A stretch of 64,000 bases of DNA. Origin: Glaucostegus cemiculus (lineage: Eukaryota). The stretch is from assembly GCA_976551045.1 (NCBI GenBank), contig CDPCPM010000013.1, positions 13,392,001-13,456,000 of the forward strand, in the 5' to 3' direction. The notes beneath the pieces were generated by a model. It had not been told where the DNA came from and searched no databases. It saw nothing but the letters and a program-made list of their open reading frames with translations. The translations under genes were made by a program, and so were the position numbers. This document shows, piece by piece, positions 7,400-60,510 of this stretch; position 1 is the first letter of the stretch; every line of letters begins with the position of its first letter.

Positions 7400-8620
7400 G
7401 CTGAGAGGGATCGGTGAGACAGGGGCTGGTAAGTGAAAGGTTGAACCAGATGAAAGGGGGGGTGTGATGGACAGATGAGGGAGGGGGAGTGTTGACAGAG
7501 GCTGGAAACTGATAAGTGGAAACAGATAAGGGGGTGGGCACAAAATTAGGCAGATGGAACTGGGTGGAGGAGGGGAGCAGGAGGGTAGAGAGAGAGACTG
7601 CTAGGGGGAAACAGGTAAGGGAGAAATGATGGACAGGTGCAACCAAGTAGGAGAAGTGCAGAAGATAGGAAAGGTGAAATAAGGGAGAAGAAACCAAGGT
7701 AGTTAGTTATGTGGGTGATGGACAGATGGAACCAGGTAGAGGAGGGTAATGAGTCTGGGTAGGGAGAAGGTGGGGAAGGAGTGGAAAAGATGAACAGGGA
7801 GAGAGACTCTGGATGGACTGGTGGGAGTGGGAAAGGAATACAGGGAGAGTGAGTTACCTGAAGTTGGAAAACTCAATGTTCATATCATTAGGTTGTAGGC
7901 TACCCCAACGGAATATGAGCTGGTGTTCTTCTAGTTTGTGTTTGACCTCACCCTAGCAGTGGAGAAGGCCGAGGACAGACAGATCAGTGTGGGATTGGAA
8001 AGTGGGAGTTGAAATGACATGTGACTGGAAGTTCAAGATAGCTATTGTGTACAGAGCGCAGGTGCTCTGCAGAATGCTCACCTAGTCTATGCTTTGTTTT
8101 GCCAATGCAGAGGAGGCCACATTGCAAGCACAGAATGCAAGAGGTGAGGTTGGAGGAGGTGTACGTGAATCTTTGTCTCATCTAGAAGGGTTGTTTAGGT
8201 CCCTGGATGGTGAGGGAGGAGGTATAGGGACAAATGTTGCACCTCCTATTATGGGAAAGTGCCAGGGGATGGGGAGGGGTGGATGGAGATGGATGAGAGA
8301 ACCGAAAAGTCACAGAGAGAGTGATCCCTATGGAAAGGGGGTAGAGGGGAAGATGTGACTGGTGGTGGGATCCCATTGCAGTTGGCAGTAGTGGCGAAGG
8401 GTAATATGCTGGATGTGGAAGCTGGTAGGGTGAAAGGGGATGACCAAGGGAACTTCATCTCTGTTCTATCTGGGAGTAGCAGGGGTGAGACCAGACATTC
8501 GGGAAGTGGTAGAAATATGCATGAATACAATGCTGGATGAACTCAGAGGGCCAAGCAGCATCTGTGGAGGCAAAGGGACGGTCGACGTTTCAGGTCAAGA
8601 TCCTGCATCAGGACTGAGAT
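7400..8620 (-). mobile_element. Penelope-like element fragment with GIY-YIG endonuclease and a terminal repeat
   Basis: ORFs give CNICPYTSSLTIQGPKQPF and RQRFTYTSSNLTSCILCLQCGLLCIGKTKHRLGEHSAEHLRSV (degenerate GIY-YIG). Pyrimidine-rich 3' region; terminal repeat at 8525-8620. Confidence 0.85.
8578..8616 (-). ncRNA. Minimal hammerhead-ribozyme-like motif in PLE terminal repeat
   Basis: The - strand reads CAGTC CTGATGC AGGATCTTGACCT GAAACGTC GACCG: stem I, core box, stem II, GAAA, palindromic ACGT and a GTC cleavage triplet. The core has a C after CTGATG, so activity is uncertain. Confidence 0.55.
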
Positions 8621-9289
8621 TGTGGAGCAAAATTGTGCAGATGAGTTGTACCTGTGTATCTTGAGCAGTTGAAGCCCTGCCAAATAATAGTTCAAACCCA
8701 GCCAGCGATCAATACTGGAAGATGCCAGCTGGGGACACTGATCGGTGATTTCCTGGCACCCTGTTCCTCCTGGCTCACCAGACAATCCAAAAATATTTTA
8801 CCTTAGCTTCTTAGCTTCTGAGCCAGAGTTGGAATCCCAGCTGATGGGAAGTAACAGGGAAACTGGCAGTAGTTCTGACCTTAGGCCTCAATCTCTAGCG
8901 CAGCTGGTACTTTAACAATAATCCACATTGTTAAAGAAAGGATTTGTAATCTCCCAATGGGCATCCCCCACAGTTTAATAGAAAGTCACTGCATCAAGTC
9001 AGCTGGTTCACAATGGAGAAGAACCAGGTCTCATTTTGATTGGCCATCTTCCCTGGTTTCTGCCAGTGCAAGTAGAGTCACGGGTGGGATGTTTAACTTA
9101 GTGCAATGGAATTAACTACAGCATATTATTGACATCCAATATCTTACTGAGGGTGAAATAGTAAAAGGGGATACAGCTGAAGTATATTTTCCACTAAAAA
9201 GGAAAATATTAGAGGTTAACATAGAAGTAGGTAGATCCAAAATACACCCACTGTATTACAGACAACTTTGTTTCCCTAACAGCTCCTAC

Positions 9290-9752
9290 TTAAAATAAAC
9301 ACAGAAAATTCTGGAAATACTCAGCAGTCACATTGTTATTTGAATCCCAAAACAAGGCAACCAAGAAGCTATGCCCATGGACACCGGGTTCCCAAGATCC
9401 CCTGGGAGGGGACAACCCAAATGTATTTAAAAACTAATCATCTTACCTCCAAATCAACAATAAGTTTAATGGTCTTAGGAAGAAATTCAGCTTAACGGTG
9501 CCCACTTTTAAGATGCAACAAATCCTCTTAGACTTTTAAAATGACATCCAGTCACTGCATAACCACTCGGTGAGGGCAATCGCACACAACAACAGGAAGC
9601 TCAAATACCAGGCCTAGTCAGCATACTTGTTCTGATGAAAGTTCATTGCCCTCAAGTAGTAGCTCCACAGGTACTGCCTGACATGCTGAGTAACTCCTGC
9701 ATTCTCTGCTCTTATTTCAGATTTCCAGCAGCTACAGTTTTTTTGCTTTTCT
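9290..9752. mobile_element. Inverted pair of PLE terminal-repeat fragments around ~300 bp of other sequence
   Basis: acagaaaattctggaaatactcagcag (9301) versus tctgatgaaag...gctgagtaactcctgcattctctg...tttccagcagctacag (9631-9750). Confidence 0.5.
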
Positions 9753-12700
9753 AATGAGCATGCTGCTGGCCAATGTCTCATCCAAAATGGTAGGGAAGCA
9801 GCTGGCTGGCCATTAAAATGGGAATGCTTGGAGGGTATTGGTTGAGCACATCAGTGGTTTGAGAATGGCAGAAATCCTGGCTGTGGAGCTGCAAGGAATT
9901 CCACCAGGCCCCACAAAGGAAATAAATAGACTAACTCAAGGGGTTAGTCGATCAGCCCACAGCCAACTTCAGCTTGGTGAGAAGGCTATTTCCCCTTTTA
10001 AGGAAAATCAATGTATTTAGGTAAGTCCCCATTGGTTTTGGGGGAGGTGTAGTTAGCACATGAGGTCTACAATTCAAGTTTCCTATCCCATTATAACTGA
10101 GCAGGAAGAATTAAAATGCCGGTTGTATTAAAGATAGGTAAGGTTAGTGAAGGAGTTTTCTACATATCATGCGGAAGGTAGGTCTGCAGTAACGCAGACA
10201 GATGATAGAGCAAAGACACTTTCTTTGACATATAATGAGAAGAATGGGTGAAACTGCTTTCTTTTACTCTTGTGTGTCATGTGCATTCATTGGATAAAGC
10301 ACCAGCTTCTTTAATATTTTACTATTTCTTGGTGAAGTTGCTGTGTGGAGTACTACCTTAAGTCAGAATTCAGACATAATCAAACCAACCTATCAGCACA
10401 GGGCTGTTCACAAAGTGTATCCCTTCTTCAGAGTGCTGTTGCAGTCAAACCTCGTGATGTTTCTGAAAGAAATACTCTTCAGCTGAGTCCCAGTGTTCTG
10501 TGAAGTGTGCATTCAGAACAGGCAGTGGGGGAAGACATGGGCATGAATCCTGGATGTATGAATTTCTATGGAAAACTTGCCCTATTAGTCACAAGGGTGG
10601 AGGGTTAATTTTTCCTTCAATTTTCTCACCCAAAATACAACCAGAAGACTTCCTATTGGGTGGAATAGCTATAAGACCTCAATCGCAAAACTCTGACGCT
10701 GCACAGTTATGGAATGGAAGAGTCAGAGGATAGGTAGGTTGGGGAAAAGTTGCTGGAGATTTGAAGGGAAATCAGAGTTTGTTGATAAGTGGTGGTCATG
10801 GAAGTAACAGGTCATAGAGTGACCTGAGTTTGGGATTAACAGTCCTGCTTGTTCTGGCCTGCAAGGTCCACTGAAGAAAATATTAATCTTAATAATTCAG
10901 CTTTTCTTGCCTCCTTTTATTTGCCACATTTCTCAAGGACATGAAACCTGGTCCACATGTTGAGATTGTTGGTATTATGCCTGATTGATACTTACATTTT
11001 AAGGCAGGATTAATTATCACCCCTCATCTCAACTCTGTTAAAACCTAAAGTGCATGTGTTTAGAATTTTTAATTTTTCATCCTCCCTCTTAAACAAAACC
11101 CATTTGTATTGAGGGTTCAAGTTCTTCCTCAATAGGTTTACTCCCAGCATCAGTTTAAAAGCATCATACTAGAGCAAGCTAAAACATACTTTCATATGAA
11201 TAAGTAATCCTCATGACCAGAACTCTGCTGTATGTGAAAACACTATCTTATATTGTGGTGCATTCCATTTTATTGCCATTCTTTTATCTGAATAATTACT
11301 CTGCCTTTTTATTTTCTACATTGACTTAATCCATAATAAATAAGCACACAATGACTAAGGCACAGCTTACTCAACTATTAAAGGAAATGCTGAAAATTAA
11401 AATAAGCCAGGCTGTCATTTCCCTCATTTTAATGTTTACTCAATGCTTGCACAATGAGACAATTTTTGAAGAAGAGCCTAATAACTCCTGTATGTTCAAC
11501 TAGTACATAGTCATAAATATGCCATATGTTTTTCAACTAATTATAAACCTATTCCAATTTATATAATTATAGGAGTCATTAACATTTAGTACATCACACT
11601 CTGAGAGATTTTCAGATTTGAACACAATCCATAAGTTTTACTAGATTTCATAATGACGAATCTGTATTCTGTTTACTTATGTGGAAAGTGAAAGGCATTC
11701 AACTCAATATATCAGTTATTGATGTTACCTGAAACAAAATAAGCCCTTCTGAATATGAACATAAAGGAGTGAGATACAGGGACCATATGTTCCTAACTAT
11801 CTCCCACCATACATTCTCAATGTTTTTTATTCTTAAAAAAAACAATAAGAATTCCATATACAATTGGACAAGTGCCAACTTTCTCTTCCACTGGTCTACC
11901 CACATCTCCACTCCCTCACCCCACTCCTCCTGATGGTCCCACGGACTGGTGAGTGTTCAAGAAACAGAACCAAAGGCAGAAGCTGCCCTACCTATTCCTA
12001 CCCCTTCCCACATGATTGAATGTATGGAAATTCCATCCATTCCTGACCCAGTGGAAATTCTCCAGGGAAGCTCTGCATTGCTCCAGGACATGAATTTTGA
12101 AGGCTAGCTCATCAGCTACAGTAGTGAACGCTTTACCATAGCTGTGCCTCTGCCACCATAGCTAATTCCTGTTACGAGTCTGTGCAGTTTGCCTTCAAGT
12201 ACTGAGCTTGTGGTGTGGTAAAGGTTGCCTTTTTGATTTTGAAATGGTCATGGTGAATTTGGGAGCCCCTTATATGATTATGTAATATAGCATTTGTAAC
12301 TTCAGCTATAATGAGACCATTCACATATTAACAGTCAGAGCTGCATGGCTTACAACTTAATATCAGAATTATTAATCTTACCAATTCAAATTTTGCTGAG
12401 CTTTGTAGGCCATACCATACCAAACTACTGATAGTCCTGTGTGAAAGTGCCAGCACATTTTGAGACTCCTACATAAGTATAAAAGTCCTGAATGTATTTG
12501 CAGAGCTCATCCAACAATTTCCCAGCTCTGCTCCACTGCTGAGCTCTGTTCACCTGGCAGGAGTCCCACAGCACCTACACTGAGGAAGCTGCTGTCAGGG
12601 CTCAGTGCAGGATTCAAATGTCTATTCATTTGAGTGGAACTTGCAAGGAAGAACGATATCTGAATGTGGGCAGAGCAGATTACAGGGAAGATCCAAAGGG

Positions 12701-14072
12701 GAATGGGTTTGCTTTCTGAGCTGGCATAGTCTCAATGGGCTGAATGACCTCCTATGTAGTAGGGAGCTATGAAAATACAAAATATGAAAGACTAAGGTAC
12801 AATTTCCAGTCAATTGTAGCTCTATTATTAGTTCAAACTATTTATATATTTTAGTAGATTTTAATTTTAATGTATCTTTATTTTTAATTGTTTTAAATGT
12901 TTTTGAATTTCAGGGTCACTCAGAAGTGTTAAAAAGTCTTGAGAGCTTTGATGACAAAGATTTTCCCTGTAACCTACTCTCCCCACATTTGGATACCATT
13001 CTTCCTTGTAATTTCCATTCAAATGAATGGACTCCTGGATCCTGCACTGAGCCTTGACAGCAGGTTCCTCAGTGTAGGTGCAGTGGGACTTCTGCCAAGT
13101 GAAAAGAGCTTAGCACTGGATATGCTGTTGGGGAGGGAAGTGGAGGGGGGTGAGGACTGAGGGCAGGAATGATGTCAAAGGTTTCCAGAGGTACTTTGTG
13201 GGTAGGGCTTGGCTTGGCTGACTCACATCTCCCAGTTACGTTACTCAGTGCCCATATGGCAAGCAGGACAATAGTGGTTTGCACCAGGACCAGCTCATCT
13301 GTCCAGAAGTGGACATGCTATCTAACAAAGCTATGCAGAGCTGACGTGGTGAGTGCAGGCTGTAGATCACACTCAGTAAGATCCATGTCTAAATCACTAA
13401 TAAATATTACCATTAACAGAGGGTTCTCAATGGAGCCTACAGTCAAAAGTCATTTCTAATAGACACCTACTTTTGTCTTTCTGGACAAATGAAATGACAA
13501 ACCTTTGAAAATTCATTTCAAGCTCTTGTAAATTTGCACCTTCCTTAGTATCCCTCCTAATTCAATAAATGTTCATATTAAATAATAGTAATCAAACTAC
13601 AATGATTGTAATTTGCTTCTGATATGACTGTGAGAGTTGGCTTCATTTTACAAAAAAATTAGTCACAATCCATCTGACATTGTGCTTTTCCAAGCCATGT
13701 TATTTAATTTACTGACAATGAAATCTAAATAAAATATTAAAATGCTAAACATTTCATTCTTGGTTATTAGGCATTTTATTACCCTAATTCCTTCATTGTT
13801 TTCATTCAATGCTTTGGCATTTTGTTGGTTGTAATTTGCTGTACATGATAAACAAGTGACTTGACAATGCTGGGCCCTTCCCACCCAATAGCTGCTAGCT
13901 TACCTGCACTTGATCTCCTAGCAGCAGCTCTTGGATGAAGATGCTTCATACCCTAAAAATATGAAAATATGTTTGAGTAAACTCAATTAGTTCAAAGAAT
14001 GCAAATTATCTAAATCTTACCAACCCCTTCTCAGCACTTCCTCTCCACTGAAGTAATGGAGTCATAGAATCA

Positions 14073-14355
14073 TCAAAGTCAAAGTCACAAAGTCAAGTTT
14101 ATTGTCATATGCACAAGTACATGTATGCCCAGGTGCAATGAAAAATTACTTGCAGCAGCATCACAGGCACATAGCATCAGAGAAGCAGCATTCACAAGAA
14201 AAACATAAATTAAACATAAATTATACCCAAATTTTACAAGAAAAAACACAATTAGAACAATAAAAGCCCTTATTAGTGCAAAGTGATCAAAGTGGTCATA
14301 GTGTTGCTAGCGATTAGCGTTGTGCCAGTCCATTCAAAAACCAAATGCTTGAATT
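14073..14355 (-). mobile_element. Rex1/Babar-type 3' tail
   Basis: Reverse complement ends tgacAATAAActtgactttg with (GACTTT)n repeats, the same layout as the 4455 and 50903 copies. Confidence 0.55.
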
Positions 14356-14655
14356 GTACAATATGGAAATAAGCCCTTCTGCCCATCTGTGCTAACTATC
14401 AGGCATCCATTTGCATAAATCCTTCTCTAATCCAATCTTATTCTCTACATGTTCCCATCAACTCCTCCTAGATTTTACCCTTCAACTGCACACTAGAGTC
14501 TATTTACACTGGCCAATTAACCTACTATATGGGAGGAAATCGGAGCACCAGAGGAAACCCACACCATCACAGGGAGAACATGCAAACTCCACACACCAGA
14601 GTTCAGGATTGAACCTGGATCTCTGCAACTGTGAGGCAGCAGATCTACTAGTCAC
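14356..14655 (-). mobile_element. V-SINE (old)
   Basis: gggaggaaatcggagcaccagaggaaacccac...ggagaacatgcaaactccacac...ggattgaacctgg is the antisense V-domain plus B box. Confidence 0.75.
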
Positions 14656-20038: not shown

Positions 20039-20341
20039 CCCGAAAGCTAAGGAAGTTCAGTAAATTAAAGAACATCGGCAACAACCAATCTTCTCTGCAG
20101 TCCGAAATGACACTTCCAAGTGTCAGTCCAGTCGCAGTACCAAAGATCACATTACATTCCGCTAGAGGAGTCCAGTTCACGCCGTCACTCGTTTCCATTT
20201 TACAGATAATTGAACCCGAAGTTGTTTATGCAGGCTATGATAACAGTCAGCCGGACTCATCTAACTATCTGCTAACCAGCCTGAATAGGCTTTGCGAAAG
20301 GCAACTTGTATCTGTTGTTAAATGGGCCAAATCTGTACCAG
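20039..20341 (+). CDS. PGR: Progesterone receptor exon (hinge + LBD helices 1-3; exon 4 equivalent)
   Basis: Acceptor ttttgtttttcag|CC, donor CCAG|gtaaca, 303 bp. Translates (A)RKLRKFSKLK...SILQIIEPEVVYAGYDNSQPDSSNYLLTSLNRLCERQLVSVVKWAKSVP(G), matching the 3-ketosteroid receptor LBD start. LLTSLNxLCERQL is typical of non-mammalian PR. Confidence 0.93.
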
Positions 20342-21711: not shown

Positions 21712-22055
21712 TTTATCCACAGCCTTTCTGTGGACTTTTGCACAGGAGCTTAGCTGTAGACTAAGAGAAGCAAGAACCAAAAAAACACCACTTCTTTTAT
21801 ATCGGATCTCGAACCTGCCCAAAGAAAAGGCAGCAGGGTTTCTACTTAACCAATAAAATTGAGAATTATTAACTGGCAGACAGTTTATCCACAGCCTTTC
21901 TGTGGACTTTTGCACAGGAGCTTAGCTGTAGACTAAGAGAAGCAAGAACCAAAAAAACACCACTTCTTTTATATCGGATCTCGAACCTGCCCAAGGAAAA
22001 GGCAGCAGGGTTTCTACTTAACCAATCAAATTGAGAATTATTAACTGGCAGACAG
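21712..22055. repeat. Tandem duplication, 2 x 172 bp
   Basis: 21712-21883 and 21884-22055 differ at 2 positions by eye. Confidence 0.95.
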
Positions 22056-23324: not shown

Positions 23325-24185
23325 ACTGAGAGGGTCATTCACCTGTAATATTAACTCCATTTTTCTCCATCCACAAATGCTGCCTGATCTACTGAGTATT
23401 TCCAGCATTCCCTTTTATTTCATGGTTCCAGTTACTGCTTTGTCCTGCATCTCCCGCATGTTTTTTTCCCTCCTCTAACTGCATTTCCCCGAGCAGAGAT
23501 GCTGTGATTAACTAGCATTTATTCCCCTCTCCTAGATGAGTCCAAAAAGAATAGTGTCAGCTGCACAGCCTTGGTGTCCACCCTATCACAGACATTCCCT
23601 CTGTTCTCTCTGTCCTCCTCCTCTCTGTAGTATGCTTGCTTTCTTACTTTTCTAGTTCTGATGAAGTAGCTTTGACCTGAAGCGTTAACACTGGTTCTGT
23701 ATCAAGGCTGTCTGACCTGCTAAGAATCCTTTGGTTTTTATTTGCTTTTATCTTAGCGAGAGGGCAATTTAGTGTGCTGAGAGGGGAAGAGGAAAGGAAG
23801 GTCTGTGATAGAATGATAAAAGTGGTGAAGGGTGAAGGTGCAAGGTAATAACACAGATTAGTTGAAAATGCAGAACGATTATCTGAAGTTACAAAAGAAA
23901 TTGGGTAAGAATGATGAATTCTGGAATAAAATCACTGGCACGTTATTTATTTGAAATTATTGAATGCTTTGAGTTTGGAAAGCCAGAACATGAAATGCTA
24001 GGCGTCTGAGAGCTCGGAGTCAGGCTTAGGGATTGTAAGGAGGTGTTCGGCAAACCCATTGCCCAATCTGCATTTGGCCTCTCCAGTGCAAGGTCCATAT
24101 TGTGAGCAATCAGTGCAATATACAACAATGGAAGAAATAGAAGAAATTGCTACTCCACATGTAAAGGGGATTTGGAAAGGTGAGC
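23325..24185. mobile_element. Penelope-like cluster: two + strand terminal repeats, then an antisense GIY-YIG remnant
   Basis: Terminal repeats near 23330-23420 and 23650-23745 (AGTT CTGATGA...GACCT GAAGCGTTAAC); 23950-24185 resembles a decayed copy of 7860-8230. Confidence 0.6.
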
Positions 24186-25667: not shown

Positions 25668-25768
25668 GTGCTGACGAAGGGTCTTCAACCTGAACTGTTA
25701 ACTCTGTTTCTTTTCCCGCAGGAGCAGCCTATCCTCCTGAGTATTCCCAGCATTTTCTGCTTTTATTA
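25668..25768 (+). mobile_element. PLE terminal repeat with hammerhead-like core
   Basis: CTGACGA AGGGTCTTCAACCT GAAC TGTTAACTCTG...gagtattcccagcattttctgc. Confidence 0.6.
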
Positions 25769-32950: not shown

Positions 32951-35423
32951 GACAATCACATTTGCACTGATAAAATTAGATTTTCCTTTCACTTGCAATG
33001 AATTCAGCCCTGAAAAATCCAACATTAAAAAAATGATTCTTGCATTTGTCATTTTTACTACATACACTTGAATTGTTCTAGATTTGATCCTGGTTTTTGC
33101 TCATGATATGGCCTCCTTTAGATTGGAAAAAAAAAATTCTGATTGGCTGCTGCAGTGACAGGCAAGCCATATTGTGTTTTAGTGTCTCAGGAGGAGGGAC
33201 AGGAGATCAACAGAGATTCCTTTTTCCAATCATGCTAATCAATTCAAGGCAGAACAATGCCAGAATGGATCTCTGCTGGGATCAGGCTTAATCTTAGCTG
33301 CACAGCCCCTGCAGAAGAATAGTCTGCCAATGTGAAATGTCTTTGTTCACTTGAAGAATGGATATTTGGCCAATGTGTCATAAGATGACAGACTCTAATG
33401 GAAAGTTCTATCAGCAAATTATCATCAACCAATGAAAAACAGGGAAGGAAAGAAGTAAGGACAGAAGTCAAAACATCTTTAGAATTCCAAAAGCTTCTTC
33501 TGATAGTAGTGACCGGCAATTTCCACAATGTGACAATTGCACTGTAAACCACATTTACTTGATTCTCCGTTTTTCCTGTTATCAGTTTGGTGGCCATCTT
33601 TGCCAGTAATAGAAATGTGTTTTTTCAGATCTTTTCACGTGCTTTCTTTCAAAGCTTTGTTACATCATACAATTGTTTACTGGTACTTTTTATATCTTTC
33701 CATCATTGTTCTGGCTACAATAAAAGCCTTTCCCAATAAGGATGGAGAAACGCAATGTTAAGGCAATTTGTATTTGTCCAACATCATGAATGTAAAAATT
33801 CTTCACCAGGTTCTTCTCCGAGTGTAATGAAATGGACACCAATGCAGTAAAGACAGATATTTTGAATCTTTTGTAGAGCTTCATCCACTAAATGCACACA
33901 CCTGGAACTTGACGATGAGGTTAACTGGGCCCTGTACAATTTTATTTTCATTGTTATTTCCAGTGACTGTGAATAGGCAAAGTTTGCTTTTATCTTTTAG
34001 CATGTCAATGATGTGAAATACTTCAGAGCTTCACTAAGCAGAACTGCGCAAAAATATTTAAAGAAATGACCATATCTTTTTCTGCACCCGGCATACTAGA
34101 GTCCTCTGTGTTCAATGGAACACCAACATTTGTGCTTCTTTCTCCAAAGTATTCTGGAGACATAAAACTACGTCAACATCCGCAGAAGTGAATCTTCAAC
34201 CAGGTCAAAGACCAGCAAGTAAGTTGTGAGCAAGTTAAAATATTAAGGTAACACAGAACATCATGTTATAGGAAAAATCAGCCAAATCAGCAAACTAGAT
34301 GAAGTGAGTGTCCACATGCTGCATTGGAAAGAAGGCATAAATGTTGGGTTTAATCTCAATTATTATCCAAGAAGGGTTCACACAATGAAGAACTGTTGGA
34401 TATCCCACCACACTTCACCATCCCATCTTGAACTGCTAAAGGTTAGCAGGAATATCCCAGCATTTTGTCTGTACTAAAGGATGAATTTAAATTCTCATCT
34501 TACATGCAGTTTGAGCTGCTTAATTTTCAGGATGCTGTCCTAATGCAAGGGCAAGAAACGAAAATGAATTAAAAGCAATTATACGGATGTGCTGCTTTGT
34601 GCTGCATACACAGCATCAAATAAAAATCTGCAGCAAGGAACAATTTGGATGTCCTTTTGTAAAATTACTTTGATCAGAGTTGCATCTCAATAATGCATTG
34701 GCATCAGTAGCAGATACACATTGGAATTAACCTAAAAACTGAATGCAAATTGATCTAGTGGGGTCCAAGCAAACTCTAACCAGACAATAGCCCTAGCCAC
34801 CGAACAGTTTAAGAACAAGGACTGGATTGTGAGAAGAATCAACAGGACCTCATTTTGGAAACTAATGTGTGTATACTCCAAACTACAGAACTATGATTCA
34901 GTCTGTTTATTATGCTTCTGGTATATGTTCATGCAGAATGCATTTCCTTTTAATTCTTCTTGATAGCTGAGGCTAGTTTGAAGATCTCATTTGTCCTCTT
35001 TGAATGTATGGTTTTGTCAAGCTTGTTTTAAGTTGGAAACTGGAGATTTTGAATGCATTGACCTCAGCAAGGAAATTTATTGATTTATCAGTGGTGACTC
35101 CGTTGATCATCACTAATTTCCAAGTCCATGCAGTGAATTTTCATCTTTGACTGAAAGCCGATAATCTGACAAAGAAAATTACACTTCAACTGCCTGATTT
35201 GTTCCCATAGGTCTACTGTACCTGATTACTGCTCATGAGGTAAAGGTGAAAATTAGTCCCATAAGTCTTGGAAAGCCAATTATTCATGAATTTAATTACA
35301 CCAATGTGTATCAAGGGCACTGCTTTGCAAAATGATTTAAAAAAATCAAAACTTATATAGGTCATAAGACCTAGGAGTGTTTTATAGTTATAATTAAAAC
35401 AATATGCTGAAATTGGGAACACA

Positions 35424-35575
35424 AGAGACTGCAGATACTGGAATCTGGAGCAACACAAAAGACGCTGGAGGAACTCAGGGGGTCAGGGAATATCTATGGA
35501 GGGAAATGGACAGTTGACATTTCAGGTTGAGACCCTTCACCTGGACCCACTGAGTTCCTCCAGCACCTTTTGTGT
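35424..35575. mobile_element. PLE-derived fold-back element with 19-bp flanking direct repeats
   Basis: Arms caacacaaaagacgctggaggaactcag / ctgagttcctccagcaccttttgtgttg. Flanks TGCTGAAATTGGGAACACA (35405) and TGCTGAAATTGAGAATACA (35576). Confidence 0.75.
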
Positions 35576-39180: not shown

Positions 39181-39325
39181 GATTTCGGAATTTGCACATA
39201 GATGATCAAATGACCCTTATTCAGTACTCGTGGATGGGCTTGATGGTATTCGCAATGGGATGGCGATCATATAAACACGTCAAAGGAAAAATGCTGTACT
39301 TTGCTCCAGATCTGATTTTTAACGA
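39181..39325 (+). CDS. PGR: Progesterone receptor LBD exon (exon 5 equivalent)
   Basis: Acceptor gtatttacag|GA, donor AACGA|gtgagt, 145 bp (the conserved NR3C exon size). Translates (G)[47 protein letters not shown](E), in phase with the previous exon. Absent from the ORF track. Confidence 0.95.
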
Positions 39326-41849: not shown

Positions 41850-42157
41850 AATGAACATTTTTAAAAACTGCAGATGCTCGAACTGCAAAATAAAAACAGA
41901 AAATGCTGTTAAAACTCAGCAGGTCAGGCAGCATCTGTTACACATTACACAGACTAAAGAACTTAATGTGCTGGTATCTGCCCACATTAAGCCATTTTGA
42001 CTCTCCCTCTACATCCCTCCCCCACTTCTCTCTACTGAAAACTAGCAATTTCTCTCTTTCCTATTTCTGACAAAGGGTCACATACCCAAAACATTGACTG
42101 TTTTACTTTTCACCTGTTGCCTGACCTGCAGAGTATTTCCAACAATTTATGTTTTTG
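41850..42157. mobile_element. PLE-derived fold-back element with 14-bp flanking direct repeats
   Basis: Antisense terminal repeat 41865-41937 and sense terminal repeat 42065-42155; TTGCCAATTTTAAC at 41832-41845 and 42158-42171. Confidence 0.7.
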
Positions 42158-44424: not shown

Positions 44425-44575
44425 ATGCAGAAGTAAAATTGATGAAAGCACTCAGTAGCTCAGACAAAGGGTCTTCTACCTGAGAAGTTGATGTTTCTCT
44501 TTCCACAGATATCTCCTGACCTGCTGAATATTTCCAGAATTTTATGTTTTTATTTCAGATTTCCAGCACCTAGTT
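44425..44575. mobile_element. PLE terminal-repeat element (degenerate fold-back)
   Basis: aagggtcttctacctgag...ccacagatatctcctgacctgctgaatatttccag...tttcagatttccagcacc, preceded by a short antisense arm. Confidence 0.55.
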
Positions 44576-47029: not shown

Positions 47030-47440
47030 ATTGGGAGTGCACTCAACATTTGACCTGATCTGACCTGAATTCACTTGTATCTGTTGCTTAATCTGATTCC
47101 ACTTATCATCTTCATTATTATCAGATTCCAGAATCTGAAGCCTTTTGTTGTCTCAACATCATCTTTCAGCCTCTGTCTCTTTCTCCCCCTACCTGGCTCC
47201 ATCTGCCCAAGAAACCCTCCTCACCTGGTTCCATCTTTCACCTGCCAGCTCCGGGCTCGCACCTCCCATCATCTCTGAGCATGTAGAGGCTATCTCCCCT
47301 CTACATGCTCAGTCCTGACGCAGGATCTCAACCTGAAGCGTTCAATGTCCCTCTGCCTCCACAGATGTTGCCAGACCTATTGAGTTGCTCCAGCAGTTTT
47401 TTGGTCCAGATTCCAGCATCTGCAGTCTCTTGTGTCTCCA
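47030..47440 (+). mobile_element. Penelope 3' region and terminal repeat
   Basis: Pyrimidine-rich tract, then CAGTC CTGACGC AGGATCTCAACCT GAAGCG...ccacagatgttgccagacc...ccagattccagcatctgcagtctcttgtgtctc. Confidence 0.7.
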
Positions 47441-48614: not shown

Positions 48615-48745
48615 GCAACGAATGCAGAAGTCAGCAATGTATGATCTGTGTATAGCAATGCGTCAAATCTCACAAGAATTTATTCATCTTCAAGTGACTC
48701 ATGAGGAATTCTTATGCATGAAAATCTTAATACTCCTTAATACAA
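48615..48745 (+). CDS. PGR: Progesterone receptor LBD exon (exon 6 equivalent)
   Basis: Acceptor ttttctctttcag|G, donor ACAA|gtaagt, 131 bp (conserved size). Translates (E)QRMQKSAMYDLCIAMRQISQEFIHLQVTHEEFLCMKILILLNT; EEFLCMK..LLNT is PR-type. Confidence 0.95.
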
Positions 48746-51342: not shown

Positions 51343-51668
51343 GGGTAGCACAGTGGTGCAACTCAAAGGGCTGCTGCCTCACAGCTCCAGTCGTTCAATC
51401 CTGATCTCCAGTACTGCCTTTGTGGAGTTTGCCTGTTCACCCTGTGACCACCTGGGTTTCCTGCAGGTACTCTGCTTTCCTCCCACATCACAAAGACAAG
51501 TGGATTGATCGGCCATTGTAAATTGCCCCTATGTGTGAGTGGTAGAATCTAGCAAGAGTTGATTGGAATGTGGTGAGAATAAAAGATGGGATTGGTGTAG
51601 GATTAGTGGACACCAGTGAGGTCTCAGTGGGGCATAGGACCTGATTCTGTGCTCTGTGACTCCATGAC
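51343..51668 (+). mobile_element. V-SINE (old)
   Basis: gggtagcacagtggtgca...gttcaatcctg...gtggagtttgc...gggtttcc...tttcctcccacat...gtaaattgcccct. Confidence 0.75.
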
Positions 51669-52554: not shown

Positions 52555-52740
52555 TTAAATGCTAGAAATGCTCAACAGTCTAAACAGTATCTACAGAAAG
52601 AGATATAGAATTAATGTTTCATCAGAAAAGGACATCATCCTGAAATGTTAACTCTGTCTTTCCACCAATGATGCCTGATCAGCTGAATAGTTGCAGAAAT
52701 TTCTTCCTGATTTCAGATTTCCACCATCTGCAGTATTTCA
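52555..52740. mobile_element. PLE-derived fold-back element (old)
   Basis: aaatgctagaaatgctcaacag...aattaatgtttc / cctgaaatgttaactctg...tttcagatttccaccatctgcag. Confidence 0.55.
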
Positions 52741-53445: not shown

Positions 53446-53481
53446 GAGAGAACCTTTTATTTCCTTCCTCTCCTTACCTTT

Positions 53482-53706
53482 TGTTATATTTGTTCTTCAT
53501 CCAAGAGACAAACTTGGCGTGGTTTTAACAACTGAACATTTTATTAAAATGATAAAACAAAGCATGCAGACTTACAGGCTGCTATCAAGAGACTGGCTTT
53601 TTCCTGCTCTTTTCAGCTACTTCCTGTCTCCCATGTGACCCCTTGCATTGCCTGCTGGGAACTGTAGTTCTTTATTATAACTATATAACAAACACATAAT
53701 AACACA
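53482..53706 (-). repeat. 3' LTR of Gypsy element
   Basis: Copy of 57315-57540 with about 9 substitutions and 1 indel by eye; preceded on the - strand by the polypurine tract. Confidence 0.95.
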
Positions 53707-53718
53707 TCTTCCCCCTTT
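53707..53718 (-). other. Polypurine tract
   Basis: The - strand reads AAAGGGGGAAGA abutting the 3' LTR. Confidence 0.85.
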
Positions 53719-53949
53719 AAAAAAAAACAAATGCAATACTTTGTTCTTATAAACCTGCCAAGAACCCTTGTCCACTCAGCAGCTTTCAACCAGTCTCTGA
53801 GGAGGTTTAATGGTCCTTTTTGGTCTGGTACTTGTTTCCACAGGTGTGCTGCTTTCATTTGCTGCATTGGTGTTTTCCTGGGAACTCTGGTCCGCATGTT
53901 CATTTTCTCCAGGTGCTGGCCCCTCTGGCGTGCTGACAGGGGACGGTTT

Positions 53950-54650
53950 ACAAATTCCTCACTCGAAAATTGTGGACCATTGTCTGATACGACTTCACAT
54001 GGAACTCCATGCCTCGCAAACACCACTTTCAGGAATGTGATAACTACTTTGCTGGATGTTGATTGTAGTGTCACAACCTCTGGGTAATTGGAAAAGTAGT
54101 CTGTTACAACAATATGACTCTTCCCATTACAGTCAAACAAATCCACTCCAACTCTGAAATACAGCCTGTCTGGTACAGGGTACGGTGTAAGTGGTTCTGC
54201 TTGCTGCTTTGGTCTGTAGGTATGGCATATTTCACATGAAGCAGTTGTCCGGCTGATGTCTTGGTTCATTCTTGGCCAATACATCACTTCACGTGCTCTA
54301 CGTTTACACTTTTCCTCACCAAGATGCCCTTCATGTATCTTTTGGAGCATCTCCTTGCGTAGTGACACTGGAATCACAAATCTGTTCCCTTTGAAAACCA
54401 TATCTTTCACTACTGACAGTTCATCTCTGCATGCCCAATAACCCCGAACACACATTGGACAGTCATTCTTTTCTGCTGGCCATCCTCTCCTTATTGCATC
54501 CTTGTTTACTTTCATTGTTTCATCTGTCTCTGCTGTTTTCCTAATCTGCTCTGTTCTATCCGGAGATACTGAAAGAGAGGTGACAATCATATCAACATAG
54601 GCCTGTATATCCACATTAACCTGTTGATCACCTTCTTTTTTTTCCTGTCT
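53950..54650 (-). pseudogene. Gypsy integrase, truncated
   Basis: HEGHLG..KCK..YWP..CEIC zinc-binding region, VGVDLF, VVSDNGPQFSSEEF; homology stops abruptly before the catalytic Glu. Confidence 0.9.
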
Positions 54651-54660
54651 TGTCGACTGC

Positions 54661-56499
54661 TCAAGACAGAGCATCAGCAGCAAACATGTATTTTCCCGGC
54701 ATGTAAATCATCTTCACATCATATTTATGCAGCCTTATCAACATACGCTGCATCCTCATGGGACAGTCATTCAGTGGTTTGGACATAATTGAGACCAATG
54801 GTTTATGGTCTGTCTCCACTTCAATAGCATGCCCATAGATGTACTGATGGAACCTTTCACATGCATATGTAATGGCGAGAAGCTCTTTTTCTATTTGTGC
54901 ATAGTTGGTTTCTGTACTTGTTGAAGCCCTTGATGCACAGGCCACGGGTTGCCATTTGGCATCATGCTGCTGCAGTAGTACTGATCCAAGGCCGTGCTGG
55001 GATGCGTCAGCTGATATCCTGATACATTTTTCTGGATCATAAAACTTCAGCACGGGTTTTTCAGTTTGGACCCTTTTCAACATCTGGAAACACTCCTCTT
55101 GCTCATGACACCAAATCCATTCTTTTTGTTCCTCAAGGAGTGACCTAAGTGGTGCTGACACTGTTGACAGATGAGGGATGAACTTAGCCAAGTAAGTCAC
55201 CATCCCTAAGAAACGTCTCACCTCCTCTTTGTTTTGAGGCCTCTCCATGTTTTCAATGGTTGATGTCTTTCTTGGGTCTGGTTTCACTCCCTCTTTAGAT
55301 ATAACATCTCCTATGAAGGTCAGTGTTTTCACACCAAACTCACATTTCTCCTTATTTAATTTCAAATGGACTTTCCTTGTCACATCCAGCACTTGTCTCA
55401 GTCGAATATCGTGTTCCTCCTTGGTGGACCCCCAGACGATTATGTCATCCATCATGGTCTCAACACCAGGTATTCCCTCAAAAATCATGTGGATGGTTTT
55501 ATGGTAGACTTCTGGTGCGGACAGGATCCCATATGGCAGCCGATGATAGCGATATCTTCCCTGTGGTGTGTTAAAAGTACACAGTCTCGAACTTGCCTCA
55601 TCAAGCTTCATTTGCCAAAATCCAGATGATGCATCGAGCTTGCTGAGCCATCTGGTACCTGCAAACCGGGATATGATCTCCTCCCGTGTTGGCAATTTAA
55701 AGTGCTCTCTCTTGATGGCTTTATTGAGATCTCTTGGGTCTAGACATATCCACAATGCTCCATTTTTCTTTTGCACAATGACCGGTGAACTCACCCAATC
55801 TGTTGGTTCTTCAGTTTTTTGTATGACATTCATCCGTTCCATGCATGCTAGTTCTTGTTTAAGTTTATCTCTAAGCTGAAGCGGGACTTTCCTGCATGCA
55901 TGGACAACAGGAGCCACTGTCTCATCAATGTGAATTTTGTGTACACCCGGTAAACATTCGAGCCCTTCAAAGACATCTGCATACTCTTCCATGAGCGTTG
56001 TATGGTCATCTTTGGTATGTGAAGCTACTACAAAAACTCTTTTCACTAGGTTGAGCTTTTCACATGCACTCAGACCTAATATTGGGTGAACATTCTTTTT
56101 CACAATCAGTAGCTGTGCTCTTAAGTGCTGCCCCTTGTGCTTAAGGGTCACCATACAGCCTCCTCTTACTGGAACTTTCTCTCCAGTGTAGCCTGTCACT
56201 TTTAACCTCATGGGGTAAATCTTACTTTTTACTGTGAGAGTCTTATAATCGTCCATAGATAACAGATTCACCTGGGCTCCGATGTCAAGCTTGAATGGAA
56301 TTACTGTCTCATTCACAGTTACTGGAACAACCCATTCTGTTTTACCAGCAGCCACAGTCTGTACAGAATCTACAAAGAATTCCTCCATTTTCTCAACCAC
56401 TGTGTGCACCTTTCTCTTGTTAGCCCCAGCTTTGCAGCATCTTGCCAAGTAATTCTTCTTCCCACAGCTATTGCAGGACTTCCCATAAGCAGGACACAT
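54661..56499 (-). pseudogene. Gypsy pol: protease, reverse transcriptase, RNase H
   Basis: FKLDIGAQ (protease), CLDPRDLN, KLDASSGFWQ, LPYGI..APE, MMDDIIVWG (RT), DAS..GLG, YAQIEKELLA, ETDHKPL (RNase H). Ends at a premature stop in ADALS*. Confidence 0.93.
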
Positions 56500-57160
56500 C
56501 TTTGGAGTGTGTTTACCTCCACATCTGCTGCATTGCTTGTATGAGCCTTTCTCTTTAATTTGCTGTTAGGAAGAATGCTTTGGGAGCTGTTTCCCCGTTT
56601 TCACTGCATTTACTGTTGTTTCTGCCCTGTACAACTCCTTAGCCTGCACTCGTGTGGTTTCTGCAGCCCTACACATATTCACTGCCTTTTCCAGGATCAA
56701 ATCTTTTTCACACAACAGTCTTTCTCTGGGTGCATTATCAGGAATTCCACAAACTATTCTGTCTTTAACTAGTGAGTTTCTCAAATCTCCAAATTCAAAA
56801 GACTTACTCAGTGTATGAAGCTCAGCTAAGTATTGGTTGAAACTAACACCTTGTTTCTGATCACAGGAAGAGAACTTATATCTCTCAAATATGATATTTT
56901 TTACTTGGGACAAAATACTCCTCAAATTTTCTCATCAAGGTGTCCAAATTAAAAGCTGTCTCTTCAATTTGAAAACTGTTGTAAATATCCAAAGCATCTT
57001 CTCCTACCACATGTAGAAAAGTAGACGCTTTCAATTTTTCATCCTTCATTCCTGCTCCACTGGCATCTAAATATATATTGAATCGTTGTTTGAAACTTTT
57101 CCAATTATCAGACAGATTGCCAGTAAGCAGCATAGGCTTCCGAGGACTTAACTTATCCAT
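56460..57160 (-). pseudogene. Gypsy gag, frameshifted
   Basis: ORF pieces MDKLSP..GNLSDNWKSFKQRF.. and ..ERYKF..EFGDLRNSLVKDRIVCGI.., followed by a Cys/His knuckle region (CSRCGGKH..CPAYGKSCNSCGKKNYLARCC). Confidence 0.85.
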
Positions 57161-57300
57161 AACAGGAACTTTTACTTAAACTTCTTTTGGTATTTTCAAT
57201 CACTGCTGAACTTCTTCTTTCGATTATTTTTCTTTACTCACAGAGTTTCTTCCTTTTTGCACACAGTATTCGTTTACTTTCTTTGTTCAGAGCTCACACC

Positions 57301-57314
57301 ATCTTCTGACACCA
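57301..57314 (-). other. Primer-binding site (tRNA-Leu type)
   Basis: The - strand reads TGGTGTCAGAAGAT right after the 5' LTR, complementary to the tRNA-Leu 3' end ...CTTCTGACACCA. Confidence 0.85.
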
Positions 57315-57540
57315 TGTTATGTTTGTTCTTCATCCAAGAGACAAACTTGGCATGGTTTTAACAACTGAACATGTTATTAAAACGATAAAACAAAGCATAC
57401 AGACTTACAGGCTGCTATTGAGAGACTGGCTTTTTCCTGCTCTTTTCAGCTACTTCCTGTTCCCCCATGTGACCCCTAGCATTGCCTGCTGGGAACTGTA
57501 GTTCTTTATTATAACTATATAACAAACACATAATAACACA
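57315..57540 (-). repeat. 5' LTR of Gypsy element
   Basis: Near-identical to 53482-53706; reads TGTGTTATT...ATAACA on the - strand and is followed directly by the PBS. Confidence 0.95.
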
Positions 57541-57545
57541 CCTTT

Positions 57546-57845
57546 GATCCATCCCCCAGTGGATCTGCTCTTCCCTCCTACCCCACACCTGCCTACCACT
57601 ATCTCTTACCTGCATCTACCTATAACCACCTTGTGCCCACCATGCCTCCACCTATCACTGCTCTGCTTTTCCCTTCTTTATATTGTGTTTCCCCTTTTCC
57701 TATCTTCAGTCCTGAAGAAGGGTCCTGACCTAAAATGTTGACCGCCAGCTTTTCTCCACAGAAACTGCCTAGCCACTGAGTTCCTCCAGCATCTTGTTGA
57801 TTTTTTCATCTAGATTCTAGCATCTGCAGTCCTCTGTTTTTCCAT
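57546..57845 (+). mobile_element. Penelope 3' region and terminal repeat (host of the Gypsy insertion)
   Basis: Pyrimidine-rich tract, then CAGTC CTGAAGA AGGGTCCTGACCT AAAATGTTGACCG...ctgagttcctccagcatc...agcatctgcagtcc. Confidence 0.75.
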
Positions 57846-58586
57846 TCTCTGATGAGTGAGTGCTTCAGTGCTATGAAATTGCAATTATCTGCAATTGTCT
57901 TATCTCTATCCAGTAATTACCAAATTGCAACAGTCTTATCTCCATTCAGTAATTATCAAAGGATTCTCCATGCTCCTGGTTGCATAGAAAGAAACTGTGA
58001 TTTCTAGGTGGGCTACAATATGCTTGTAATGCAGTCTCCATGATCTCACTTGAGGCCTTTATGGTATAGTATAATTCCAATAACCATTGAGATACAAGAA
58101 CATCTTTACATCCATTTGCTCTGGTTTATATGCCATAGCCATATCAATACACAGTGTAAACTCTTCCTTCTGCAGTCTCTATTCTTTAAAAGAGTTACTT
58201 GCTCAGAAATCCAGCAGCTTGGCTGTCTGTTTGTTTCATCATATACTCTCAATCCAAGTATCAACACAGATGTGAGGGATTGTGCCCAGTGTTCAACCCT
58301 CTGATTCAGGTATGGTGTCTCTATTGTTCATTCATTCACTAAGGTACTAGAAATAGTCAGTAATTCAAACTAACAACAATGGTACTATCAAATAAAAGTA
58401 AAGGTTACAGTATCAGGGTGCATTTTCCACAGTGGCAAACAAACTTTCTAATGTTCCACACTGAAAACATGTTGCAACACAGATGGCAGTAATTCATGTG
58501 ACAGAATCCTTAAAGAGGTACAACCTTAAAACAGCAATGATTGTTCCCAACCACAAACACATGATACATATGTTATTGATCACTAT

Positions 58587-58727
58587 TCCTCCCACATTCT
58601 GAAAGACGTACAGGTAGGTTAATTTGGGGGGGGGGGGGGTGGTTAAAATGGGCGGTGTGGATTCGGAGGGCCGAAAGGGCCTGTTACCACGCTGTAAATA
58701 AAATTTTTTAAAAATTAAAATTTAAAT
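58587..58727 (+). mobile_element. 5'-truncated copy of the V-SINE at 2504
   Basis: Matches 2637-2760 closely, with an expanded G-run. Confidence 0.85.
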
Positions 58728-58829
58728 GAAATAGGTATTCAGTGGAAGGATGAAAATTACTTTCCCCACCTGGTATTCCAGAGCACCCTATATAGTATCA
58801 CCACGAGGTCAAAGTCAAAGCTAGTGTGA

Positions 58830-59350
58830 TAACTGGCAATGAAACAGCTTCACCACATTAAAAGAAACCAGGCGCAAGCAACTTCCACTCCACAATGTCA
58901 TGTTTGAGACCTGGAAGTCAGGACTCTCTTGGACAATACCAACAGACACTTTGACATTGAATGAGGCACAATGTGCAGGAGACAACCAGTCTAAAGAACA
59001 AGGCAGAGGGTGCACCTTCTCCAGGAGGAGTAAACTGGAAGAAAAACACTGTCTTAACAGAGAGGAGTACCGCCAGCAAAAAATGAGCTAGTTCACCATC
59101 TCAAGAACTATTACTGCAAAATTAGTGGACACCCCATTCCTCGGGAACACCATTAGGCCCTATATAAGTACTGGAAGGAGAAAGCCTTCTCACAAACTAT
59201 CCATCTGCCAGCTCTAACAACAACCAACTGCCTCATCTATGGAAGAGCCTAATGCTCTCATATTGGCCTTGCTGGCCACTAAGAACCCATAAAACTGCAG
59301 CAAAAGTAAGGCATCCTTCATCCCAAGGGACAGTCTAAGCAGAAGAAGGT
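58830..59350 (+). mobile_element. RTE-like LINE 3' end (degenerate)
   Basis: Decayed ...ataccaacagacact...cctcatctatggaagagcc...ctctcatattggcctt...cttcatcccaagggacagtctaag resembles RTE 3' termini. Confidence 0.4.
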
Positions 59351-60376
59351 GGCAACCAAGTTTATCACTGTGTAGAGTCCTCAAAACAGAGAAACTTCTA
59401 AAAAAGAAGTTAATAAACCTCGAAAAGGCTTACAGAGCAAGGTAACGCAATGATACCACAAAGCAGTTAAAGAGGCCAAATATGCATTCTGTGAACTGTT
59501 GCCTGGTAACCTTAATATCTTTTAATTACCCAAACATGCAAACCTCTCTCATTACTGTTCCTTCAAAGCAGGATACACATTCAAACTTTAACTTATAACT
59601 GACCTCCTTAACCCACTATCCTCTTAACAGGAACTCTCACAGAAAATTATTGTCATGCAACACAACTGCAAGACATGGACATTACTAACATGCAGGTTGT
59701 GGTGCTGGGCTTCTCTAAAAACTAATTTGCTTGTAAGGCATACCACTATCGCTGGACCCAGACTGATGAGGAACCAGAAGCTCTTGTCTTCAAGTAAGGA
59801 GGCCACCCTGGCATCCTTGCTTAAAAGACTGTTAACCAAAGGCTCTGAAGCTTAAGTCCAATATAATCATTAAATGAAGACATGGCTACTATCTTAAAAC
59901 CATTGCACCAAGAGTGCTGAAAGTGACTCTCAGAGTCAGCTTCCTAATACTTGCCTCTTCTCCTGTTGGTCTGAAAAAAGCGGTAATAGTCATGACCCAA
60001 GAGAAGCTGGCACTCTGCTGTATCTGGCATTCCCCACACCAAATTGTCAAGTAATAGCAATAACATCCAATTATGCAATGACTTTTGAAGATTTTTGCTG
60101 GTCTTGATCAGACACTAAAGCAAAGAATTTAATACAATCCACAGCACAGAAACAGGCTATTAAGCTTACTTTGTGGTGTTGGTGCTTGAGCCTGTTCCAC
60201 CATTCATGATATAATGGTTTATTTGGTATTGGCCTCACATCCGCTCTCCTGTCCAATCCCCACAATCCCTGATTTTTTTCCAACAGTCCTTGAACATAAT
60301 TAATTACTTAACCTCTGCAGTTCTCTGGGACAGAGAGTTCCAAACAGTCACAACTTTCTAAGGAATTCTTCCCCAT

Positions 60377-60510
60377 TGGTCCTGACGCGGGGTCCTGACC
60401 TGAAACGTCAGCCATCCCTTTGCCTCCTCAGCTGCTGCTTGACCTGCTGAGTTCCTCCAGCAGATTTATGTTTGCTCCAGATTCCAGCATCTGCAGTCTC
60501 CTGTGCCTCC
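60377..60510 (+). mobile_element. Solo PLE terminal repeat inserted in an antisense CR1 fragment
   Basis: GGTC CTGACGC GGGGTCCTGACCT GAAACGTC AGCC...gacctgctgagttcctccagcag...ccagattccagcatctgcagtctc; CR1-like sequence lies on both sides. Confidence 0.75.

What the first reader, a model, noticed from the sequence alone, without database searches (positions are those of the whole stretch)
8578..60415. Dispersed minimal hammerhead-ribozyme motifs in Penelope terminal repeats across the PGR introns
Seen: the same layout recurs at 8578-8616(-), 23655-23692, 25668-25705, 42065-42100, 47310-47348, 57707-57745 and 60378-60415. It is a short stem I, CTGANG(A/C), a stem II hairpin (e.g. AGGGTC-CT-GACCT), GAAAC-GTH, then the stem I partner. 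Many deviations fit CpG decay (CGAAACGTCG to TAAAATGTTG). Established: PLEs carry minimal type I hammerheads with a palindromic ACGU in place of stem III and are thought to cleave as dimers. Inference: two subfamilies are present (CAGTC/GTC and AGTT/GTT). One variant has C where the conserved A follows CUGAUG (three copies), which could be a non-canonical core. Most copies lie on the PGR sense strand and so are transcribed into the pre-mRNA.
Basis: partly seen in the sequence, partly recalled or inferred. Interest (0 to 1): 0.7.

Follow-up and report, generated by a model that had tools for sequence, protein, structure and literature searches.

The report
Decayed Penelope hammerheads, mutant-core lineages
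These motifs are decayed leftover ends of a very common Penelope-type jumping gene, carrying an already described tiny hammerhead RNA shape, at ordinary density in the progesterone-receptor introns; the one unusual point is that two lineages with thousands of copies each carry a changed core letter that would likely weaken or stop self-cutting.

Summary
All seven motifs are present. They are 3' ends (pseudo-LTR: minimal hammerhead plus tail) of Neptune-type Penelope-like retroelements: elsewhere in the genome the same motif lies about 300-350 nt behind an RT + GIY-YIG frame, and a near-complete element sits in PGR intron 2. PGR is incidental: 126 copies/Mb in the gene versus 128/Mb elsewhere; 15 sense, 8 antisense (P=0.21). 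None of the seven has a canonical core; only 1 of 83 unselected copies is fully intact. The 'C after CUGAUG' is no three-copy oddity: one pattern finds 4,772 C, 3,812 canonical A and 534 G/T copies, and the C lineage has its own endonuclease branch. A second lineage has U4A (4,039; control 139). Best reading: known PLE hammerheads, with core-mutant lineages that spread without needing cleavage, as shown in vitro for an Anolis element (PMC11167929). Cleavage is untested here. The scan noted this family, the core changes and the 5'-end clustering before on other pieces of this genome and in other sharks.

The parts
8578..8616 (-). Minimal hammerhead-type motif, C9 lineage; best preserved of the seven (core intact except A9C, G-U at 10.1/11.1, one mismatch in stem II, 3-bp stem I); antisense to PGR
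8491..8621 (-). pLTR end (motif + tail) of a C9-lineage Penelope-like element
7857..8465 (-). Broken 3' part of the PLE frame (linker, Zn-finger region, GIY-YIG endonuclease) directly after the 8578 pLTR end; groups with C-lineage endonucleases
   Evidence: (tblastn E 2.6e-27)
7290..7856 (-). Pyrimidine-rich region after the stop codon (C-lineage type), cut off shortly before where the second hammerhead would be
23655..23692 (+). Decayed motif, B lineage (3-nt loop, GUU site); A15.1 lost, stem II disrupted
25668..25705 (+). Decayed motif, B lineage; A15.1 lost
42065..42100 (+). Decayed motif, B lineage; G8A, G12A, G16.2A; inverted arm at 41864-41938
47310..47348 (+). Decayed motif, C9 lineage; A15.1G, stem I lost; element with upstream pyrimidine-rich region spans about 47197-47438
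57707..57745 (+). Decayed motif, A2 lineage (CUGAAGA, GUU site); G12A, C15.2U; element about 57581-57837
60378..60415 (+). Motif, C9 lineage; stem II complete but stem I closing pair lost and G at the extra 9/10 position; element begins at the motif (60376-60504)
35418..35546 (-). Unlisted copy of the U4A lineage with a short inverted arm (35544-35612)
3989..4201 (.). Unlisted head-to-head fold-back of two pLTR ends joined in stem II (motif 5' half missing)
3269..3429 (+). Unlisted B-lineage stub with inverted arm
23331..23408 (+). Unlisted B-lineage stub
44461..44571 (+). Unlisted B-lineage copy, core decayed
52558..52740 (.). Unlisted B-lineage fold-back
9641..9744 (+). Unlisted B-type copy with internal deletion
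20039..20341 (+). Host gene: PGR exon 4
39181..39325 (+). Host gene: PGR exon 5
48615..48745 (+). Host gene: PGR exon 6 (start approximate)

Best explanation
The seven motifs are decayed copies of the minimal hammerhead in the pseudo-LTR of Neptune-type Penelope-like retroelements, likely inert passengers in the PGR introns, and the C9 form is a founder mutation of one large lineage that likely weakened or abolished self-cleavage without stopping the lineage from spreading. Shown: the motif lies about 300-350 nt downstream of an RT + Zn-linker + GIY-YIG frame; copies are 5'-truncated, often with an inverted arm, and nearly all run 50-100 nt past the predicted cut site; lineages differ in motif, tail and endonuclease. 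Inferred: in the source elements the canonical form paired as a dimer through the ACGU palindrome and cut after GUC/GUU; reverse transcription began in the tail on RNA not cut at this motif, so cutting was not needed in cis; lineages with A9C or U4A therefore amplified as well as canonical ones; after insertion copies decayed about neutrally, mostly at CpG sites.
For: Motif behind endonuclease frame in most of the loci examined; 407-aa frame L170 has 93 homologs, many with RT (PF00078) and some GIY-YIG (PF01541), closest from rays and sharks (weak direct GIY-YIG hit E 0.013); CX4-5CxxC linker in homologs and loci; inverted pLTR + ORF + direct pLTR in PGR intron 2. A1 and A2 majority motifs fit the published min-HHR consensus CUGANGAH...GAAAN-palindrome-NUH (PMC4209133 supplement Fig. 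S3). Compensatory pairs between lineages: 2.1:1.1 C-G 23 vs U-A 19 of 83; 10.1:11.1 A-U in 17 of 49 B copies. Background density and no strand bias. 1 of 83 fully intact; core divergence close to tail divergence. C 4,772, A 3,812, G/T 534; C in 23 of 30 copies of one tail cluster and 2 of 53 others; C-lineage endonucleases on one side of a 95/94 branch. C lineage loses stem I pairs 4-5 (C-A in 13 of 24 at 2.5:1.5, versus C-G in 11 of 19 A copies). Independent U4A lineage 4,039 vs U4G control 139. A9 makes a sheared pair with G12 (PMC11300833, passage); core-loop mutants show low activity (PMC9901934, passage); HHR mutants do not affect insertion in vitro (PMC11167929, section read).
Against: No cleavage assay and no measured A9C rate was seen (search found 0 papers; Lunse et al. 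2017 not held). The rest of the core, stem II and the palindrome remain in the C and U4A majority sequences, which may mean retained function or only recent origin. Core positions diverged slightly less than tails in 5 of 6 lineages, though the profile filter favours that. The A after the C could take over the role of A9. ViennaRNA's minimum-energy fold of the motif is a rod that keeps stems I and II but pairs part of the core, so folding into the active form is not shown for any lineage. Pattern counts depend on lineage age and cover only 2-nt-loop lineages.
Confidence: 0.8

Rival explanations
1. The C9 form is an active re-registered core: C bulges between G8 and the following A, which serves as A9, so the lineage kept a working (perhaps protein-assisted) ribozyme.
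For: The A after the C is kept in 58 of 61 and 28 of 30 copies of the two C clusters, with CUGA, G8, GAAAC-GUC and stem II intact in the majority; a sharp backbone turn lies between G8 and A9 (PMC11300833); some natural core insertions are active (PMC3088659, part 3 read); the Anolis PLE ribozyme needs its protein.
Against: The same lineage shortens stem I to 3 bp without compensation; a second lineage spread with U4A, which has no such rescue; all representatives I saw in PMC4209133 Fig. S3 have A directly after G8; window copy 60378 has G at that position.
Confidence: 0.2
2. The intronic copies act on PGR: sense-strand ribozymes cut the pre-mRNA or were retained for regulation.
For: Six of seven listed copies, and 15 of 23 in the whole gene, are on the sense strand.
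Against: P=0.21; density 126 vs 128 per Mb; each sense copy has a broken core or stem; no tandem partner for dimer formation; copies belong to four lineages of different age.
Confidence: 0.04
3. The motif is kept mainly as a structural or splice/priming signal of the pLTR (acceptor site, fold-back point, protein-binding hairpin); catalysis was lost early in all lineages here.
For: 5' ends pile up at the front edge of the motif (19 of 25 U4A copies within -12..0 of C3; 20 of 61 unselected non-B copies within -7..+4) and not at the cut site (3 of 61); all lineages have a pyrimidine tract plus CAG ending in stem I.
Against: Compensatory changes in both stems and an unchanged catalytic core across A1, A2 and B lineages with divergent endonucleases fit selection on a ribozyme fold in those lineages; no spliced genomic copy was found.
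Confidence: 0.15

Closest known systems
Minimal hammerheads (min-HHR) in pLTRs of metazoan Penelope-like elements (Cervera and De la Pena 2014, PMC4209133; parts 1-2 of 4 of the text and parts 1-2 of 3 of the supplement read)
   Same: Type I layout, CUGANGA plus one extra nucleotide, 5-bp stem II closed by G-C, GAAAC-GUH with palindrome in place of stem III, short stem I, thousands of dispersed truncated copies, position in the pLTR.
   Different: No cartilaginous fish among the representatives I saw; two large lineages here carry A9C or U4A, outside that consensus; the core variant reported there is the compensated U3-A8.
Neptune-type endonuclease-bearing PLEs (PMC8557442 preprint and PMC3846280, passages read)
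   Same: RT, CX2-5CxxC linker, C-terminal GIY-YIG; heavy 5' truncation, inverted 5' pLTR, one-sided tail.
   Different: Clade assigned from the linker only (shared with Nematis); no intact full-length frame recovered; no RT phylogeny run.
Anolis Poseidon element PAc (PMC11167929, passages and second half of main text read)
   Same: Hammerhead in pLTR, insertions extend past the cut site into a tail, cleavage dispensable for insertion in vitro.
   Different: Different PLE clade; PAc has a canonical core and its ORF starts in stem II, which I could not show here.
Drosophila virilis Penelope pLTR intron (PMC2377424 passages; PMC4209133)
   Same: An intron whose 3' end maps to the 5' end of helix I; here an acceptor-like site sits at the same place.
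   Different: Intron here is only predicted, 270-480 nt, with a donor-like GTAA over the stop codon that lacks G at +5.
Non-LTR retrozymes (bioRxiv 10.64898/2026.07.22.740005, passages read)
   Same: PLE-related hammerheads in vertebrate genomes.
   Different: Copies here are dispersed, variably truncated ends of coding elements, not tandem non-coding units.

Membership tests
PLE minimal hammerhead (min-HHR) | CUGANGA core box followed by one extra nucleotide | tested here: met
   Majority of A1, A2 and B lineages
PLE minimal hammerhead (min-HHR) | CUGANGA core box in the C9 and U4A lineages | tested here: not met
   C at 9 in 57 of 61 and 30 of 30 copies of clusters C1, C2; U4A 4,039 copies
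PLE minimal hammerhead (min-HHR) | GAAAN-NUH with palindromic 15.2/16.2, no stem III | tested here: met
   Exact intact motif in 118 A and 12 C copies; decays by CpG changes
PLE minimal hammerhead (min-HHR) | Stems I and II with compensatory changes | tested here: met
   C-G to U-A at 2.1:1.1 and G-C to A-U at 10.1:11.1 between lineages; few independent events, no formal covariation test
PLE minimal hammerhead (min-HHR) | Intact core and stems in the seven window copies | tested here: not met
   0 of 7 canonical
PLE minimal hammerhead (min-HHR) | Self-cleavage as a dimer | not testable with these tools
   No assay possible
EN+ Penelope-like element | RT followed by C-terminal GIY-YIG upstream of the repeat | tested here: met
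EN+ Penelope-like element | pLTR in direct or inverted arrangement, one-sided tail, 5' truncation | tested here: met
   L119; inverted arm upstream in 11 of 25 U4A loci
EN+ Penelope-like element | Intact full-length frame between two direct pLTRs | tested here: inconclusive
   Longest open PLE frames 294-407 aa in the 22 loci screened; no targeted search for the N-terminus
Neptune clade | CX2-5CxxC Zn-finger linker between RT and EN | tested here: met
Neptune clade | RT phylogeny with reference clades | not tested
Non-LTR retrozyme | Tandem non-coding units with hammerhead | tested here: not met
   Copies dispersed at kb spacing and tied to coding remnants

The most novel reading that the evidence does not exclude
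The C9 lineage carries a naturally re-registered, still active hammerhead core (C bulged between G8 and A9) in on the order of a hundred thousand copies, and in all lineages an intron runs from the ORF stop codon to stem I, so that splicing switches the ribozyme's 5' arm, as in Drosophila Penelope; comparing canonical, A9C and U4A lineages of one genome would then show directly what PLE ribozymes are for.
Probability: 0.15. Interest if true: 0.6.

Novelty: new variant of a known kind. Interest (0 to 1): 0.28.

Why it matters
The system is known and the PGR location is incidental. What is usable: the role of PLE hammerheads is an open question (PMC8557442), and this genome holds coding lineages with canonical, A9C and U4A cores that each reached thousands of copies. 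If the two mutant cores are dead in vitro, that is genomic evidence that PLE ribozyme cleavage is dispensable in vivo; if A9C is active, it is a natural core variant missed by CUGANGA-based searches, which would undercount these motifs here.

Tried and rejected
Rfam scan: no hammerhead hit in the window or in four intact copies; uninformative. Homolog search with the 98-aa endonuclease piece among longer proteins: none of 13 candidates scored; the 407-aa frame worked. Pfam on short PLE pieces: nothing relevant. Sequencing runs: no RNA holder listed. Spliced genomic copies (endonuclease end joined to stem I; pattern covers A1, C and U4A ends, not A2 or B): 1 match, which was an ordinary unspliced copy; this neither shows nor excludes the intron, since PLEs keep introns. 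None of the named chondrichthyan homologs ends in the peptide that this splice would give; one stingray gene model continues into other sequence right after the frame's last codon (P0004). Literature: 'hammerhead + A9C + core' 0 papers; 'Penelope + shark + Neptune + transposable' 1 unrelated; 'Penelope-like + chondrichth + hammerhead ribozyme' 3, none evidently on this (listing only); Lunse et al. 2017 not held, so its roughly catalogued variants (recalled) could already include A9C; the eLife per-mutant data and Perreault Figs 5, S6, S7 were not seen. Rejected: chance motifs, PGR enrichment or strand bias, C9 as sporadic decay, retrozyme arrays, 5' ends set by the cut site. No covariance model was built.
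Full report
Observation. All seven motifs are in the sequence at the stated places and strands. A degenerate pattern gives 5 window matches against 0.10 expected. Each motif is followed by the same 60-100-nt tail, and profile searches show about twice as many family members in the window, several as fold-backs. Rfam does not detect them, nor four intact copies. No listed copy is canonical: A15.1 is lost in 23655, 25668 and 47310, G12 in 42065 and 57707, G8 in 42065; 8578, 47310 and 60378 have C at position 9, and 60378 lacks the stem I closing pair.

Host gene. Exons of a 3-ketosteroid receptor lie on the + strand at 20039-20341, 39181-39325 and about 48615-48745; in neighbouring stretches exon 2 is near -93.9 kb, exon 3 near -22 kb, and exons 7 and 8 near +86 and +88 kb. 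The best extant PDB match is the progesterone receptor, by a few bits over androgen and glucocorticoid receptors. Exon numbering is recalled from the vertebrate gene. The closest named relatives of the element's protein are from rays and sharks.

What the repeat is. Intact motifs exist elsewhere: 118 exact canonical and 12 exact C9 copies, 0 in the reversed control. Upstream of many lies a pyrimidine-rich stretch of about 300-350 nt and then the end of a frame with GIY-YIG-like and CX4-5CxxC motifs. That piece has 53,932 first-look candidates in the genome. A 407-aa frame (L170) has 93 homologs, many annotated with RT and some with GIY-YIG. In PGR intron 2 (L119) there is an inverted pLTR with tail, a 5'-truncated RT-EN frame and a direct pLTR without tail, the arrangement described for EN+ PLEs (PMC8557442 preprint and PMC3846280, passages). 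The linker marks Neptune or Nematis. In the window, 8578 is followed by a broken 3' part of such a frame.

Lineages. Clustering 269 copies (83 from 664 kb not chosen for the motif, the rest from targeted searches) gave A1, A1b, A2, B, C1 and C2, plus a small group with deletions. A1 and A2 fit the published min-HHR consensus (PMC4209133 Fig. S3). B, the most diverged (tail divergence 0.22), has a 3-nt loop, a GUU site, U-A instead of C-G at the stem I closing pair and often A-U at 10.1:11.1 (17 of 49), which are compensatory changes, though few independent ones.

The C variant. With one pattern allowing CpG decay, position 9 is C in 4,772, A in 3,812 and G or T in 534 places. Among unselected copies it is A 52, C 25, T 4, G 2; clustering on the tail alone puts C in 23 of 30 copies of one cluster and 2 of 53 others. 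Six C-type endonuclease ends, including the window fragment, lie on one side of a 95/94 branch in a 26-row tree (16 of 28 A1 rows were dropped; three of the six were labelled by tail only), and L188 shows RT and EN remnants ahead of a C9 motif. So it is a founder state of a coding lineage. That lineage also reduces stem I to 3 bp. A second change, U4A, occurs in 4,039 places against 139 for U4G, also with endonuclease remnants upstream in several of 25 loci.

No link to PGR. The gene holds 23 motif-bearing copies in 182 kb (126/Mb); forty 10-kb stretches at round-number coordinates hold 51 (128/Mb), which extrapolates roughly to 360,000 copies. Strands in the gene are 15:8 (P=0.21), elsewhere 26:25. 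Of 83 unselected copies, 6 have a canonical core and 1 passes core, palindrome and stems. Core divergence is close to tail divergence (0.19 vs 0.22 in B, 0.09 vs 0.13 in C1, 0.11 vs 0.08 in C2), slightly lower in 5 of 6 lineages.

Mechanism. Established: min-HHRs of this type are inactive as monomers and weakly active as dimers (PMC4209133); A9 pairs with G12 (PMC11300833); core-loop mutants have low activity (PMC9901934); catalytic mutants of the Anolis element insert normally in vitro and RT starts inside the tail (PMC11167929); Naiad elements are reported to amplify without detectable hammerheads. Shown here: copies nearly always extend 50-100 nt past the predicted cut (by construction of the filter for unselected copies, but also in 65 of 66 pattern-selected ones), and 5' ends cluster at the front of stem I rather than at the cut (20 vs 3 of 61; 19 of 25 U4A copies; 6 of 29 canonical and 5 of 12 C9 exact copies). 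Inferred: templates were uncut at this motif, so mutant cores cost little and A9C and U4A lineages spread. I put 0.9 on the identity, about 0.65-0.7 on C9 being impaired, 0.2 on an active re-registered core. Against: no assay, no A9C rate in the papers I could search, and the retained A after the C.

Side lead. In 82 aligned frame ends the stop codon sits in a donor-like GTAA (G 76, T 73, A 73, A 72 of 82; position +5 mostly C, so a weak donor), and all lineages end their pyrimidine tract in CAG inside stem I. This resembles the D. virilis intron that ends at helix I. No spliced genomic copy was found; the intron is a prediction.

Novelty. The system is that of Cervera and De la Pena 2014. I did not see A9C or U4A lineages in print, but Lunse et al. 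2017 and several figure-only data sets were not available. Earlier unreviewed notes of this scan report the same family, family-wide core changes and 5'-end clustering in this genome and other core changes in other sharks; one note from another genome reports starts at the cut site, which I do not see here apart from the 3' end of L119 falling on it. Verdict: real, known kind, incidental to PGR, with a modestly interesting core-mutant lineage; interest 0.28.

Noticed in passing
window 53469-57544 (-): Ty3/gypsy LTR retrotransposon with two LTRs about 91-96% alike; gag, protease-RT-RNase H and integrase frames are interrupted by stops and the integrase is cut short. Described only.
   Followed up: partly
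L119:1486-4328 (PGR intron 2): Near-complete A1 element: inverted pLTR with tail, truncated RT-EN frame, direct pLTR whose 3' end falls exactly at the predicted cleavage triplet; single case.
   Followed up: partly
ORF ends and stem I in L044, L064, L170, L232, L032; window 7857 (-): Donor-like GTAA over the stop codon and pyrimidine tract plus CAG ending in stem I in every lineage: a predicted 270-480-nt intron. Sense copies at 47310 and 57707 thus place acceptor-like sites in PGR introns.
   Followed up: partly
window 7290-8621 (-): Permuted order: pLTR end first, then the 3' part of the frame and the following region, stopping shortly before the second hammerhead.
   Followed up: partly
window 30974-31507 (-) and 23992-24195 (-): Further decayed PLE frame fragments.
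   Followed up: no
motif positions 16.2-1.3, all lineages: The cut site lies in a second 6-nt palindrome that changes in step with stem I (GUCGAC in A1/C, GUUAAC in B), a possible alternative dimer pairing.
   Followed up: no
G000 contigs C1, C3, C4, C6 (L193-L202): The first-listed hits there are mostly CpG-intact canonical motifs and no C9 hit is listed for these contigs; younger copies or a distinct compartment.
   Followed up: partly
window 61540-63068, 43332-43902, 45817-46083: CR1/L2-type LINE 3' fragments (recalled resemblance), two forming a 292-nt inverted pair.
   Followed up: no
window 2504-3096, 14552-14593, 51421-51488, 58586-58732: Copies of another short repeat, likely a SINE, one pair inverted.
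   Followed up: no
window 12532-13120 and 21712-22055: A 162-nt inverted repeat pair (85%, MITE-like) and a 172-nt tandem duplication at 99% identity.
   Followed up: no
P0004, P0010: Ray gene models named for host genes include PLE frame sequence, suggesting exonisation or mis-annotation.
   Followed up: no
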